Shown: in pieces, positions 5,801 through 8,106 of the stretch | How positions within the stretch are numbered: position 1 is the stretch's first letter | How the letters are laid out: every line of letters begins with the position of its first letter | Origin: a virus | Taxonomy: Duplodnaviria > Caudoviricetes | Strand: one strand, 5' to 3' | Length of the DNA stretch: 64,000 bases | Virus record (IMG/VR): IMGVR_UViG_3300037067_009374 | Coordinates: 27,076 to 91,075 of that record | Program-made: the position numbers and the translations under genes | Notes under the pieces: generated by a model | What the model saw: the letters and a program-made list of their open reading frames with translations, nothing else | What the model was told of the DNA's origin: nothing | The model's database searches: none

Positions 5801-6736
5801 TTAATCCATCCAAATTCCGTTGTATTGTGCTCTCAAAAAAGGAAGTCTATTTGCTTTATCACATTCAAGACAATACCAATATTTATAAAGAGGGTCAATT
5901 TCATACCAACCAAAACGCAGCATTTTTGCACCACAACATCCACAAGTGGGATTATTGGATTGTATCTCTTGTAAAAATTTTGATACATATCCTGTTTTGC
6001 GTCTTCGCAATTCAGCTAATTCCCATACATAACTATAGATGTGCAAACCTTTTGAAACACCAATTGTTTCACCAGGATCAACACCTATTTGTTCTGCCAT
6101 ATGTTCTTTCAAGCATTGTATCCCACCAAAATTTGCTGGTAATCCCCCCCATAAATCCCATGATCTAAAATAAGTCGTGAAATGCAATTTTCCATCTTGA
6201 ATACGAGTATCAATCAATTGAAGACAAGGAGGATCTTTTAAAAGCATATCCCCTGGTTGTGCAATACTCATACACAATTGATTATTTCGAATCTTGCCTG
6301 TTTTGTATTTGTCGATCACATATTGTACCTGATCAAAATTACATCTTTTTATATAATGTTCATATTTATCAGGATCAACTGGATTTGCTCTATTTAATCT
6401 TTGGCCGTATGTATAGTCTTCCTCTGATTTCTTTTCAGATGACATTAAATATAATACATAGGGATCACCTTCAAATCCTTCACCACCTTCAATATAACCT
6501 GGTGCAACGGGATTGGGAATCCCTGCATTTTTCATATCATCTGGAAGTTCTGGTTCAAATGGTCTTATTTCTGGATGGAGTATTTGAATAATCACAAAAT
6601 CAAATTCTAATCTGTAATCTCCTGAATAAGAACCTTCATCAATTTTAAACACCTTTCCATTATCCATGATAGACATTATCAATTGATGCCAAGCATCTGG
6701 AATTGTTGTTGCTTTAATTGAAACTATATTCAACAT
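5801..6736 (-). CDS. thyA: Thymidylate synthase (ThyA fold) with C-terminal Cys-rich extension
   Basis: YTYGQR, DPPCLQ (catalytic Cys), FRSWD...LPAN, GLHIY. Confidence 0.85.
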   Translation of the reverse strand: MLNIVSIKATTIPDAWHQLIMSIMDNGKVFKIDEGSYSGDYRLEFDFVIIQILHPEIRPFEPELPDDMKNAGIPNPVAPGYIEGGEGFEGDPYVLYLMSSEKKSEEDYTYGQRLNRANPVDPDKYEHYIKRCNFDQVQYVIDKYKTGKIRNNQLCMSIAQPGDMLLKDPPCLQLIDTRIQDGKLHFTTYFRSWDLWGGLPANFGGIQCLKEHMAEQIGVDPGETIGVSKGLHIYSYVWELAELRRRKTGYVSKFLQEIQSNNPTCGCCGAKMLRFGWYEIDPLYKYWYCLECDKANRLPFLRAQYNGIWMD

Positions 6737-6760
6737 TTAAAGCTCCTTAAAAAGAAAACT

Positions 6761-6895
6761 GTGATGGGGTGGGACTTGAACCCACAAATTTTAATGAATA
6801 ATTGACTGGAGGGCGAAACCCACAATGGGTATCTATATTCATTAAAACATAGTATGGGATAGGGATACTATACATTACCATTATGCTACCCATCA
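6761..6895 (-). ncRNA. tRNA-like RNA with non-canonical anticodon loop and ~60-nt extra arm
   Basis: Acceptor stem TGATGGG/CCCATCA, U8-A9, D arm GCAT-AATGGTA-ATGT, T arm GTGGG-TTCAAGT-CCCAC; 12-bp extra stem TTTTAATGAATA/TATTCATTAAAA. Confidence 0.75.
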
Positions 6896-6993
6896 CAGTT
6901 TAATATAGCAGGAAAAGTAACTAATGCCCCTCATGAAGTGATTACTGTAAGCCGTCAACTCTCACTTACACTAGCACTTTTCCTACTAACTGT

Positions 6994-8106
6994 TTAACCT
7001 CTTCGTCTTCTTGCAATAGGTGCAGAAGCAGTTTGTGTTGGTGTAGTTTCTACAGGTTTTGCTTCTTGTGTTGATGTTTCAACAGGTTGTGTTACAACTT
7101 CAGCAGGTTTGCTGCCTTGCAATTCTTGCTGCCTTGCTGCACAAGCATCCCAAACAGAACATTTACCACAGAAACTTATCTTCTGACAATCTGCACCAAA
7201 TATACCCCCAAAAGGACATGTGGGAATTGAAGCTTGTTTCTGTTCTTGTTCTGTAAATGCTTGACCAGGTTCAGGTCTATTTTCTTGTGAAGATATCTGT
7301 GCAGTAGGTTGTTGAGTAGTAGGAACACTATAAGTAGCAGTACTACCAGCATCTCTTGGAGTTTGTTTCCAATCTTCATAAACTTCATCAAAGGTTGGAA
7401 TGTGAATGATCATTTCAAGAGATATAGCTTTCGCCATTATTTCTGCAGGAAGTGGCATTCTACGATCAACAAATTCATGGTTAATGTACTCTGTATCTGT
7501 AACACCTTTACCACTTCTTTCAAAGTAGATTCTTTTCCCATGTTGTGCATCAGGGGACATCCAAATACGCGACCCACCTTCAATAGGTATTTGAGCACGG
7601 CGTTGGATAGTCTTCTCAAAAATATGGTAAGAACAATCCCACAACTGAACACCTTTCGCTTCTTGTTCGGCTGGCATATGAGACCAAATATTATAAAGAT
7701 TTCTTCTCTTTGGTTTATTTGTATCAAGAAGTGTCTTACTAGGATTCTGTTTGAGCTTTTCGGCATCAAGATCATCACAAATAGGACATTTTTGTCCTAA
7801 TGTTCTTGCAAGACAAAGCCTTCTTTTTTCAAGAGGGCCAATTTTTTCGTGTTGGTAAAATTCAATCGTATAATGCCATTTACCTTGTTCTTTATTGAAA
7901 TGGAGATTTGTTGCTACAATAAATGGTATAACATCAATAAGATATTTACCTGCAGGAGTCTTGAAAAAATCTGGAGTTCCTTGAGGAAGGGGGTCAATAA
8001 ACAACCCCTGCCATTTAAGATTTGAACCTTTTTCAAGTCTATCAAATCCTTCGTTTTGTGCCTCGATTAATTGTTTAAGGATTTCGTCTTGCGATGCATC
8101 GTACAT
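6994..8106 (-). CDS. Single-stranded DNA-binding protein (gp32-like)
   Basis: H...CLAR...CPICD zinc motif, GVQLWD, low-complexity tail; replication-module context. Confidence 0.7.
   Translation of the reverse strand: MYDASQDEILKQLIEAQNEGFDRLEKGSNLKWQGLFIDPLPQGTPDFFKTPAGKYLIDVIPFIVATNLHFNKEQGKWHYTIEFYQHEKIGPLEKRRLCLARTLGQKCPICDDLDAEKLKQNPSKTLLDTNKPKRRNLYNIWSHMPAEQEAKGVQLWDCSYHIFEKTIQRRAQIPIEGGSRIWMSPDAQHGKRIYFERSGKGVTDTEYINHEFVDRRMPLPAEIMAKAISLEMIIHIPTFDEVYEDWKQTPRDAGSTATYSVPTTQQPTAQISSQENRPEPGQAFTEQEQKQASIPTCPFGGIFGADCQKISFCGKCSVWDACAARQQELQGSKPAEVVTQPVETSTQEAKPVETTPTQTASAPIARRRRG

What the first reader, a model, noticed from the sequence alone, without database searches (positions are those of the whole stretch)
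6761..6895. tRNA-like element with a giant extra arm directly upstream of thyA
Seen: canonical acceptor, D and T arms, but a 9-nt CCCUAUCCC loop in the anticodon position, a ~60-nt extra arm closed by a 12-bp stem, no encoded CCA, and an acceptor stem extendable to 12 bp (6757-6768/6889-6900). It ends 25 nt before the thyA start. Inference: not a decoding tRNA; possibly an RNase P/Z mRNA-processing signal, a decoy for anticodon nucleases, or a scaffold for a cargo RNA.
Basis: partly seen in the sequence, partly recalled or inferred. Interest (0 to 1): 0.7.

Follow-up and report, generated by a model that had tools for sequence, protein, structure and literature searches.

The report
Anticodon-less histidine-type tRNA look-alike, phage
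Between two replication genes, this uncultured phage keeps a very strongly conserved RNA with the ends and elbow of a histidine tRNA but no usable anticodon; it is one more member of a widespread class of tRNA-shaped phage RNAs whose function I could not establish.

Summary
On the minus strand, 6895 to 6761, lies a 135-nt cloverleaf with canonical acceptor, D and T arms. It has a 9-nt loop in the anticodon position, a 61-nt extra arm and no CCA. Rfam's tRNA model scores it at 38.2 bits only by skipping 78 nt; ARAGORN finds nothing.

It is a real RNA under selection. In two relatives it is 97-99% identical while the flanking genes are 79-84% identical. Every change keeps the fold, and an overlapping 49-codon frame shows 0 synonymous against 5 non-synonymous changes.

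It carries the tRNA-His acceptor mark G-1:C73. Across 79 distinct long-insert tRNA-framed phage RNAs, C73 goes with G-1 in 10 of 11, and other discriminators do so in 1 of 68.

I read it as a non-decoding, tRNA-His-framed RNA, transcribed between the gp32-like and thyA-like genes. It is probably cut out by RNase P and RNase Z, which would split the operon message and release a stable RNA. That processing is inferred, not shown. What the conserved insert does is unknown.

This scan has already found the wider class (tRNA-Leu-framed, anticodon-less phage RNAs) in more than 50 other genomes. The closest described relatives are the T4 rnaC/rnaD and T5 RNA1/RNA2 stable RNAs.

The parts
6761..6895 (-). 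tRNA-framed RNA 'el1', 135 nt, from U1 (6895) to discriminator C73 (6761). G-1 lies at 6896.
   Evidence: Rfam tRNA 38.2 bits spanning 6895-6761. Fold z = -4.85. 97-99% identical in L314 and L315.
6755..6901 (-). Extended acceptor helix of 13 bp (6901-6889 with 6767-6755). It includes the G-1:C73 pair and five further leader-trailer pairs.
   Evidence: Consensus fold of three sequences, columns 104-116 with 237-249. One G-C to G-U change, none broken.
6850..6870 (-). Hairpin in the anticodon position: 6-7 bp stem and the 9-nt loop CCCUAUCCC (6864-6856).
   Evidence: Loop base 3 is C in the window and L315 and U in L314.
6788..6848 (-). Giant extra arm at the variable-region position. A 13-bp A/U-rich stem encloses 35 nt that hold two mutually exclusive small hairpins sharing one GGG run.
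   Evidence: The only changes in relatives fall in a loop of the GUGGG/CCCUC hairpin.
6769..6785 (-). T arm: 5-bp stem with G53:C61 and loop UUCAAGU.
6872..6886 (-). D arm: 4-bp stem and loop AAUGGUA with G18 G19.
   Evidence: G10 to A10 in the relatives turns G-U into A-U.
6906..6988 (-). Conserved 83-nt long hairpin that starts 6 nt after the gp32-like stop codon and ends 5 nt before the extended acceptor helix.
   Evidence: Consensus fold, columns 17-99. One fully compensatory pair (G-C / A-U) and six one-sided changes, none broken.
6743..6748 (-). Shine-Dalgarno sequence AAGGAG of the thyA-like gene, 12 nt after C73.
   Evidence: Read from the sequence.
5801..6736 (-). thyA-like gene, downstream on the same strand.
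   Evidence: Pfam Thymidylat_synt, E = 2.2e-13.
6994..8106 (-). gp32-like single-strand DNA-binding protein gene, upstream on the same strand.
   Evidence: Pfam gp32, E = 2.7e-7.
19268..19423 (-). Sister element 'el2' between queC and folE. It has a tRNA-Leu-type frame, the same overall design, and the same acceptor strings UGAUGGG / CCCAUCAC shifted by one register.

Best explanation
el1 is a working, non-decoding RNA built on a tRNA frame.
- It keeps everything a cell uses to recognise and trim a tRNA: a 7-bp acceptor stem stacked on a 5-bp T stem, the D-loop/T-loop elbow, and a discriminator base.
- It has the tRNA-His style acceptor end, G-1 paired with C73.
- The anticodon arm is replaced by a hairpin with a 9-nt loop, and the variable region by a 61-nt arm.

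It is transcribed as part of the message that runs from the gp32-like gene into the thyA-like gene (inferred). Host RNase P at the 5' side, and RNase Z/BN or exonucleases plus the CCA-adding enzyme at the 3' side, most likely cut it out (inferred). That would have three outcomes:
- the gp32 message would end in the conserved 83-nt hairpin;
- the thyA-like message would keep a 24-nt leader;
- a stable RNA of about 136 nt would be released.

The conserved insert of the released RNA then does a sequence-specific job that is still unknown.

el1 is a lineage-specific member of the large and varied class of phage tRNA-framed RNAs. The only described examples are T4 rnaC/rnaD and T5 RNA1/RNA2.
For: Shown:
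- Cloverleaf with intact tertiary-contact bases (U8, A14, G18 G19, G53:C61, T-loop UUCAAGU). Rfam tRNA 38.2 bits.
- Selection on the RNA. el1 is 97-99% identical, and the whole intergenic stretch 94-95% identical, to two relatives. Their thyA, gp32 and recA genes are 83-84, 80 and 79% identical. el1 is among the best-conserved 135-nt windows in about 38 kb of aligned genome (mean 80.8%, sd 9%).
- All substitutions in predicted pairs keep the pair: 0 of 91 pairs broken, one compensatory pair.
- The selection is not on a protein. The overlapping 49-codon frame has 0 synonymous and 5 non-synonymous changes. thyA has 80 synonymous and 35 non-synonymous.
- The insert is as conserved as the frame: 3 variable sites in 78 nt, all in loops.
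- Class rules point to tRNA-like end processing. Among 79 distinct acceptor stems of long-insert tRNA-framed phage elements, C73 goes with G-1 in 10 of 11 and other discriminators in 1 of 68 (Fisher p = 8e-11). U-1 occurs in 49 of 68 non-C73 elements. Leu-type frames keep A73 in 29 of 34 and C74 in 29 of 34. el1 obeys the C73/G-1 rule.
- No sigma-70-like promoter or intrinsic terminator is predicted on the minus strand between the two genes.
- el2 has the same layout, between queC and folE.

From established knowledge:
- RNase P, RNase Z and the CCA-adding enzyme read only the acceptor/T-arm half and the elbow.
- U-1 favours bacterial RNase P.
- G-1:C73 shifts RNase P cleavage and is the main HisRS identity mark.
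Against: - No expression or end-mapping data exist, so processing is inferred only.
- The leader and trailer pair for six more base pairs (13-bp helix). This would hinder RNase P and Z until the trailer is cut. No other member of the class that I checked has this extension. It could mean that el1 stays in the mRNA as a closed domain.
- Only three near-identical sequences exist, so covariation support for the insert is thin: one-sided changes and loop changes only.
- The putative host MAG encodes CCA in 32 of 33 tRNA genes parsed, whereas el1 lacks it. The host assignment rests on metagenomic binning alone.
- The function of the insert is unexplained.
Confidence: 0.55

Rival explanations
1. Pure cis-acting processing or stability element, like a plant-mitochondrial t-element. 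The tRNA shape only directs RNase P/Z cuts, or blocks exonucleases, to set the ends and the stability of the gp32 and thyA-like messages. The excised piece has no job of its own.
For: - It is embedded between two same-strand genes with no predicted promoter or terminator.
- It ends 24 nt before the start codon.
- A conserved hairpin sits just upstream, where a 3' end would form.
- el2 lies in the same kind of place.
- A precedent exists in t-elements (PMC1920247).
Against: - The 78-nt insert, which RNase P/Z do not need, is as conserved as the frame, unpaired stretches included.
- A ThyA relative at 68% identity has no such element upstream, and most of 80 ThyA-like loci have none. thyA expression therefore does not need it.
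- The wider class mostly sits in tRNA clusters or in unrelated contexts with no conserved neighbour.
Confidence: 0.2
2. Histidine-accepting tRNA mimic. After processing to an 8-bp acceptor with G-1 and added CCA, HisRS charges it. The His-RNA (or the binding of HisRS) serves a non-ribosomal purpose.
For: - G-1:C73 is present in el1 and is tightly coupled across the class: 10 of 11 against 1 of 68.
- This holds even on Leu-type bodies (L126, L187) and across unrelated D arms. That argues for selection on this pair and not simple inheritance.
- From established knowledge, G-1:C73 is the major HisRS determinant and works on minihelices.
- Some class members encode CCA.
Against: - An 8th base pair could be kept for RNase P site choice or for helix stability alone.
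- In el1 the pairing runs on to -6:78, unlike a tRNA-His precursor.
- An earlier scan note on another small family reports that a proposed His identity did not hold across relatives (e1-5678589; not tested here).
- No phage enzyme that would use an aminoacyl-RNA was seen among 30 proteins scanned.
Confidence: 0.15
3. A decoding tRNA after all: either an intron-bearing tRNA or an expanded-loop suppressor or frameshifter.
For: - Full cloverleaf frame.
- The 9-nt loop contains CUA and UAU triplets.
- Other phage elements found here do look like tRNAs with inserts in the anticodon loop (L247 Gln-like, L243 Gly-like).
Against: - The hairpin at the anticodon position is closed and has no U33 or purine-37 context.
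- A loop base differs between close relatives.
- There is no group I intron or other Rfam match.
- The extra arm is outside the loop, so removing it would still leave a 9-nt loop.
- The genes read well under table 11, so no suppressor is needed.
- ARAGORN finds nothing.
Confidence: 0.03
4. Decoy or sponge for a host anticodon nuclease or another tRNA-targeting defence.
For: - The tRNA shape.
- Phages are known to counter tRNA-cleaving defences with their own tRNAs (established knowledge).
Against: - The loop mimics no anticodon loop and is not invariant.
- A decoy for a His-specific nuclease should show GUG. No GUG lies in the insert: the GUG triplets in el1 are in the giant extra arm and the T stem, not in a loop at the anticodon position.
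Confidence: 0.04
5. Not an RNA gene. It is either a small protein gene (49 codons, 6747-6896 minus) or a DNA-level site such as an attachment site or a replication origin.
For: - An open frame spans the whole element and stays open in both relatives.
- Conservation alone cannot tell DNA from RNA.
Against: - 0 synonymous against 5 non-synonymous changes, and no Shine-Dalgarno sequence before the frame.
- The substitutions are structure-preserving on the transcribed strand.
- No integrase lies nearby, and the genome has direct terminal repeats.
Confidence: 0.03

Closest known systems
Phage T4 species 1 and 2 RNAs (rnaC, rnaD) and phage T5 RNA1 and RNA2 ('tRNA-like stable RNA with unknown functions')
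   Same: - Phage-encoded RNAs of 119-144 nt.
- A tRNA-type T arm and acceptor-like closing helix around a long non-anticodon middle. T4 rnaC has CCGGG-UUCGAAU-CCCGG and an imperfect acceptor. T5 RNA1 has a Leu-type D arm.
- Function unknown.
   Different: - Those lie in tRNA gene clusters of tRNA-rich phages. el1 lies in a replication-gene operon of a phage with no tRNA genes.
- There is no sequence similarity in the inserts.
- el1 keeps a perfect cloverleaf frame and reaches the Rfam tRNA threshold. T4 rnaC/rnaD and T5 RNA1/RNA2 do not at E 0.01.
Canonical bacterial tRNA-His (Rfam RF00005)
   Same: - 7-bp acceptor plus the G-1:C73 pair.
- D and T arms and the elbow bases.
- The tRNA-His of the MAG that holds the related phage contig has the same G-1/C73 layout.
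   Different: - No GUG anticodon and no 7-nt loop.
- A 61-nt extra arm.
- No encoded CCA.
- Leader-trailer pairing beyond -1:73.
t-elements of plant mitochondria and the tRNA-punctuation mode of mRNA processing (PMC1920247); mascRNA at the MALAT1 3' end (from memory)
   Same: A tRNA-like fold inside a longer transcript, next to mRNA ends, read by RNase P and RNase Z as a cleavage signal.
   Different: - Processing of el1 is not shown.
- t-elements are usually degenerate tRNA remnants, whereas el1 has a large insert under strong selection.
The tRNA-Leu-framed, anticodon-less phage RNA family that this scan has found repeatedly (for example el2 of this genome)
   Same: - Constant tRNA frame with the anticodon domain replaced.
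- No CCA.
- No conserved neighbour gene.
- el1 and el2 share design and acceptor strings.
   Different: - el1 has a class-I D arm (AAUGGUA loop) and a His-type end, not the Leu-type D arm and A73.
- Its insert has no relative outside its own clade.
tmRNA tRNA-like domain and plant-virus tRNA-like structures that accept histidine (from memory)
   Same: Non-decoding RNAs that keep an acceptor end readable by a synthetase which does not depend on the anticodon.
   Different: - No G3:U70, no tag reading frame, and no ARAGORN or Rfam tmRNA match.
- Charging of el1 is untested.
YrlA-type Y RNAs with Ro60/Rsr
   Same: A tRNA-mimicking module in a non-coding RNA; phage examples exist. Other tRNA-framed phage RNAs carry a hairpin-ACAGCA module that earlier notes link to Ro60.
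   Different: - No TROVE/Ro60 gene in the phage or in the MAG.
- el1 lacks the ACAGCA module and gives no Rfam YrlA match.

Membership tests
tRNA (Rfam RF00005), decoding | Acceptor, D and T arms with the conserved tertiary-contact bases | tested here: met
   Rfam alignment of model positions 1-26 and 44-71 at high posterior probability, 38.2 bits.
tRNA (Rfam RF00005), decoding | 5-bp anticodon stem with a 7-nt loop (U33, anticodon, purine 37) | tested here: not met
   6-7 bp stem with the 9-nt loop CCCUAUCCC. The model skips 78 nt. ARAGORN finds no gene.
tRNA (Rfam RF00005), decoding | Variable region of 4-5 nt, or an arm of up to about 25 nt | tested here: not met
   61-nt arm closed by 13 bp.
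tRNA-His | G-1 paired with discriminator C73 | tested here: met
   G at 6896 and C at 6761, conserved in L314 and L315. The class-wide coupling is 10 of 11 against 1 of 68.
tRNA-His | GUG anticodon | tested here: not met
   No GUG in any loop at the anticodon position.
Intron-bearing tRNA (group I intron in the anticodon loop) | Intron of 200 nt or more with a group I core, inserted in the anticodon loop | tested here: not met
   The insert is 78 nt in all. No Intron_gpI or other Rfam match at E up to 10. The extra arm lies outside the loop.
tmRNA | tRNA-Ala-like acceptor (G3:U70), a tag reading frame and pseudoknots | tested here: not met
   A3:U70. No ARAGORN or Rfam tmRNA hit.
tRNA-Sec / allo-tRNA | 8/5 or 9/4 acceptor/T branch with a 6-bp D stem, a long variable arm and a UCA anticodon | tested here: not met
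   4-bp D stem with a 7-nt loop, no UCA, and no RF01852 match at E up to 10.
Phage tRNA-like stable RNAs (T4 rnaC/rnaD, T5 RNA1/RNA2 type) | Phage-encoded RNA with tRNA-like acceptor and T arms around a non-anticodon middle | tested here: met
   for el1; for the T4 and T5 RNAs.
Phage tRNA-like stable RNAs (T4 rnaC/rnaD, T5 RNA1/RNA2 type) | Accumulates as a stable processed RNA in infected cells | not testable with these tools
   No transcript data available.
Phage tRNA-like stable RNAs (T4 rnaC/rnaD, T5 RNA1/RNA2 type) | Lies in the phage's tRNA gene cluster | tested here: not met
   el1 is the only RF00005 match in the 91-kb genome and lies between gp32-like and thyA-like genes.
tRNA-Leu-framed anticodon-less phage RNAs | Leu-type D arm (GGCGGAA..TAGACGC) and A73 | tested here: not met
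   el1 has a class-I D arm and C73. el2 meets both.
YrlA-type Y RNA | Ro60/Rsr partner gene and a Ro-binding helix | tested here: not met
   No TROVE match in the phage or the MAG. No Rfam YrlA match.
t-element / tRNA punctuation | RNase P and RNase Z cleavage at the element defines mRNA ends | not testable with these tools
   Only the position and the absence of a predicted promoter or terminator are known.

The most novel reading that the evidence does not exclude
Phages keep a set of non-decoding RNAs whose tRNA frame preserves exactly those identity marks that synthetases read without the anticodon: G-1:C73 for HisRS, A73 for LeuRS. On this reading el1 is processed out of an operon message, given CCA, and charged with histidine. 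It then acts outside the ribosome through its conserved insert, for example by delivering or sequestering His-RNA or HisRS.
Probability: 0.15. Interest if true: 0.8.

Novelty: new variant of a known kind. Interest (0 to 1): 0.55.

Why it matters
T4 and T5 have carried 'tRNA-like stable RNAs of unknown function' in their annotations for decades. Metagenomes now show hundreds of such RNAs.

el1 adds three points:
- One of them sits inside a replication/nucleotide operon of a phage that has no tRNAs at all.
- It is conserved far above the genes around it.
- It obeys a class-wide rule (C73 goes with G-1) which suggests that the acceptor end, and not only the shape, is read by something.

Together these make two simple questions testable on a defined 260-nt fragment: is the element cut out like a tRNA, and is it charged? 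Natural tRNA scaffolds that carry foreign RNA domains are also of practical interest, because engineered tRNA scaffolds are already used to express RNAs.

Tried and rejected
- Default Rfam run and ARAGORN: nothing found.
- blastn of the region against GenBank phages: no match.
- Acceptor-plus-extra-arm pattern shared by el1 and el2 in IMG/VR: 5 chance hits with no T arm.
- FolE as a bait for relatives: none.
- ThyA bait in IMG/VR: 80 loci at 52% identity or less. Almost none has a tRNA-like element upstream.
- D-loop/T-arm pattern in IMG/VR: other class-I long-insert elements, but no relative of el1's insert by blastn or nhmmer.
- The same kind of pattern in JGI metagenomes: mostly adjacent tRNA pairs, and no el1 relative.
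- Neighbour-gene clustering around 94 Leu-type elements: no conserved partner.
- Complement of the 9-nt loop elsewhere in the window: one site, no more than chance.
- T-arm likeness to the MAG's tRNA-His: tied with a tRNA-Thr, so uninformative.
- Ro60/Y-RNA idea: no TROVE gene.
- Small-protein idea: rejected on the substitution pattern.
- Pfam scan of 30 early proteins: no RNA ligase, CCA-adding enzyme or other RNA-handling enzyme.
- Three literature searches found no description of this class beyond the T4/T5 annotations. One search was badly worded and uninformative.

Full report
**What is there**

The window is the last 64 kb of a complete 91,075-bp virus record with direct terminal repeats. 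The finding lies on the minus strand, which is also the coding strand of all neighbouring genes. Read 5' to 3' from 6895 down to 6761, it has these parts:
- a 7-bp acceptor stem, then U8 and A9;
- a 4-bp D stem with loop AAUGGUA;
- a 6-7-bp hairpin with the 9-nt loop CCCUAUCCC, where the anticodon arm belongs;
- a 61-nt arm closed by 13 A/U-rich base pairs, where the variable region belongs;
- a 5-bp T stem with loop UUCAAGU;
- the 3' acceptor strand and discriminator C73.

AGU follows C73, not CCA. The leader and trailer pair for six more base pairs, giving a 13-bp helix. The element ends 24 nt before the ATG of a distant thymidylate-synthase-family gene (5801-6736). It starts about 100 nt after the stop codon of a gp32-like gene (6994-8106).

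The strand must be stated, because the coordinates as given read as the reverse complement.

**Is it more than chance?**

- ARAGORN and the default Rfam run report nothing.
- With sensitive filters, Rfam's tRNA model matches 6895-6761 end to end at 38.2 bits (gathering score 29). E = 1.7e-4 for the window and 5.8e-8 in the genome search. The model aligns both flanks at high posterior probability and treats 78 nt as an insertion in place of the anticodon arm.
- The fold is 4.85 sd more stable than shuffles.
- It is the only tRNA-model match in the whole genome.

**Is it functional?**

A search of the large protein collection with the ThyA-like protein found an 87%-identical protein on two NCBI MAG contigs. 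One of them, a 51-kb contig binned with a Candidatus Cloacimonas MAG, is pure phage and collinear with this genome at about 80% DNA identity.

In both relatives the 257-nt gap between the gp32-like and thyA-like genes is present:

| Region | DNA identity to the relatives |
|---|---|
| Whole intergenic gap | 94-95% |
| tRNA-like part | 97-99% |
| thyA-like gene | 83-84% |
| gp32-like gene | 80% |
| recA-like gene | 79% |

Across about 38 kb of aligned genome, 135-nt windows average 80.8% identity (sd 9%). el1 is among the handful at 98.5% or more.

The four variable sites inside el1 are:
- G10 to A, which turns G-U into A-U in the D stem;
- C67 to U, which turns G-C into G-U in the acceptor stem;
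- one base of the 9-nt loop;
- two loop bases in the extra arm.

In the consensus fold of the whole gap, 0 of 91 pairs is broken in any sequence.

A 49-codon open frame (6747-6896) overlaps the element and stays open in the relatives. Its changes are 0 synonymous and 5 non-synonymous, with no Shine-Dalgarno sequence before it. thyA shows 80 synonymous and 35 non-synonymous changes, with two thirds of the differences at third positions. The constraint is therefore on an RNA structure and sequence, not on a peptide.

**A second structured piece**

The first 83 nt of the gap (6906-6988) form a long imperfect hairpin. It has one fully compensatory pair (G-C in the relatives, A-U here) and six one-sided changes, none of which breaks a pair. 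No sigma-70-like promoter or intrinsic terminator is predicted on the minus strand in the gap. The simplest reading is one transcript: gp32-like gene, hairpin, tRNA-like element, Shine-Dalgarno sequence, thyA-like gene.

**Not a decoding tRNA**

- The hairpin at the anticodon position is closed, with nine loop bases and no U33 or purine-37 context.
- One loop base differs between close relatives.
- The extra arm lies outside the loop, so no excision would restore a 7-nt loop.
- No intron, tmRNA, tRNA-Sec or other Rfam family matches.
- The genes read well in the standard code.

**The wider class**

The sister element at 19268-19423, between queC and folE, has the D arm, T arm and A73 of a bacterial tRNA-Leu. 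Of these, 97 have a perfect 7-bp acceptor and 5-bp T stem, with 94 different inserts and no conserved neighbour gene.

Earlier notes of this scan describe the same Leu-framed family in more than 50 other genomes, and they describe el2 itself.

A class-I pattern taken from el1's own D loop and T arm found about 20 further long-insert elements with other frames. None has an insert related to el1's. A scan of JGI metagenomes found no el1 relative either. A ThyA relative at 68% identity has an ordinary gene directly upstream and no element.

So el1 is a lineage-specific member of a broad and varied class. It is an accessory, not a fixed part of thyA expression.

The described relatives of the class are T4 rnaC/rnaD and T5 RNA1/RNA2. 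Both are annotated as stable RNAs of unknown function. T5 RNA1 carries a Leu-type D arm, and T4 rnaC a canonical T arm with an imperfect acceptor.

**A rule at the acceptor end**

I pooled every long-insert element with a perfect frame found here, which gave 79 distinct acceptor stems. I then tabulated the base before position 1 against the discriminator:

| Discriminator | G at -1 | Other base at -1 |
|---|---|---|
| C73 | 10 | 1 |
| Not C73 | 1 | 67 (U in 49) |

Fisher's exact p = 8e-11.

The C73/G-1 pairs sit on unrelated D arms, including two Leu-type bodies. The coupling is therefore not inherited from a single ancestor. In those elements the pairing stops at -1:73. Leu-type frames keep A73 in 29 of 34 and C74 in 29 of 34 distinct stems.

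From established knowledge:
- U-1 and C74 favour bacterial RNase P;
- G-1:C73 shifts the RNase P cut by one base;
- G-1:C73 is the main identity mark for HisRS;
- A73 is the main identity mark for LeuRS, which does not read the anticodon.

el1 has G-1:C73. These rules suggest that the ends of these RNAs are handled as tRNA ends. They leave open whether the RNAs are also charged.

**Most likely mechanism**

Shown: a conserved RNA with an intact tRNA top half and a His-type end, in an operon.

Inferred:
- RNase P and RNase Z/BN (or exonucleases plus the CCA-adding enzyme) cut it out.
- That leaves the gp32 message ending in the hairpin and the thyA-like message with a 24-nt leader.
- The excised RNA is stable and acts through its insert.

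The conservation of the insert, unpaired parts included, is the main reason to prefer this reading over a bare processing signal.

The main doubt is the 13-bp leader-trailer helix, which would have to be opened or trimmed first. It could instead mean that the domain stays in the message.

I put 0.55 on this reading, 0.2 on a purely cis-acting t-element-like role (PMC1920247), and 0.15 on charging with histidine. The decoy, decoding-tRNA, peptide and DNA-site readings share the rest.

A Ro60/Y-RNA role was suggested by earlier notes for other tRNA-framed phage RNAs. It finds no support here. Neither the phage nor the MAG has a TROVE gene, and el1 lacks the hairpin-ACAGCA module.

**Verdict**

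The element is a new variant of a poorly understood but known kind. Interest is moderate. The class has been seen many times in this scan and its function remains unknown. This copy is unusually well suited to a direct test, and it adds the G-1:C73 rule.

Noticed in passing
window 6906-6988 (minus): An 83-nt long hairpin right after the gp32-like stop codon, conserved in two relatives. It has one compensatory pair and six one-sided changes, and no U-run after it. It could be an mRNA 3'-end protector or an RNase III-type site.
   Followed up: partly
window 6747-6896 (minus): A 49-codon open frame covers the whole tRNA-like element and stays open in both relatives. All 5 changes are non-synonymous, so it is very unlikely to be a gene.
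   Followed up: yes
L386, L387, L389, L390, L395, L408, L409, L410, L416, L432, L232 (IMG/VR loci): tRNA frames with D arm GTGTAATGGTAGCAC carry one conserved insert: hairpin, ACAGCA, spacer, second hairpin. The stems covary, the discriminators vary, and CCA is often encoded. Earlier scan notes tie this module to phage Ro60 genes.
   Followed up: partly
79 long-insert tRNA-framed elements in L092-L437: Class-wide end rules: C73 goes with G-1 (10 of 11); other discriminators go with U-1 (49 of 68); Leu-type frames keep A73 and C74 (29 of 34 each) but rarely a full CCA.
   Followed up: yes
L247/L313 and L243/L311: These elements look like real tRNAs with inserts in the anticodon loop. One is Gln(UUG)-like with about 66 nt after position 38. 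The other is Gly(CCC)-like with about 50 nt on the 5' side of the loop.
   Followed up: no
L072 2903-2976 (= L089 1501-1570): In a 92-kb provirus with a ThyA-like gene 44% identical to this one, the only tRNA-model match is a weak Gly(CCC)-like tRNA (34.5 bits). It has C at position 33 and an encoded CCA, and it ends about 20 nt before that gene's start.
   Followed up: partly
window 19268-19423 (minus): el2's 9-nt loop AAGUGCACA holds the self-complementary GUGCAC, which could form a loop-loop dimer. el1 and el2 share the strings UGAUGGG and CCCAUCAC at their acceptor ends, shifted by one register.
   Followed up: no
window 10197-13994 (minus): A 1265-aa family-A DNA polymerase with an N-terminal uracil-DNA-glycosylase-superfamily domain and an intein inside the polymerase domain.
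   Followed up: no
window 5801-6736 (minus): The ThyA-like protein (311 aa) and its two closest relatives (304-306 aa) carry a C-terminal extension of about 55 residues. The roughly 250-aa relatives at 71% identity or less lack it.
   Followed up: no
L383 202-345 (phage T5 RNA1): T5 RNA1 has a tRNA-Leu-type D arm (GCCGGAATTGGTAGACGGG) and a T arm. It therefore looks like an early described member of the Leu-framed class, although Rfam's tRNA model does not reach it at E 0.01.
   Followed up: partly
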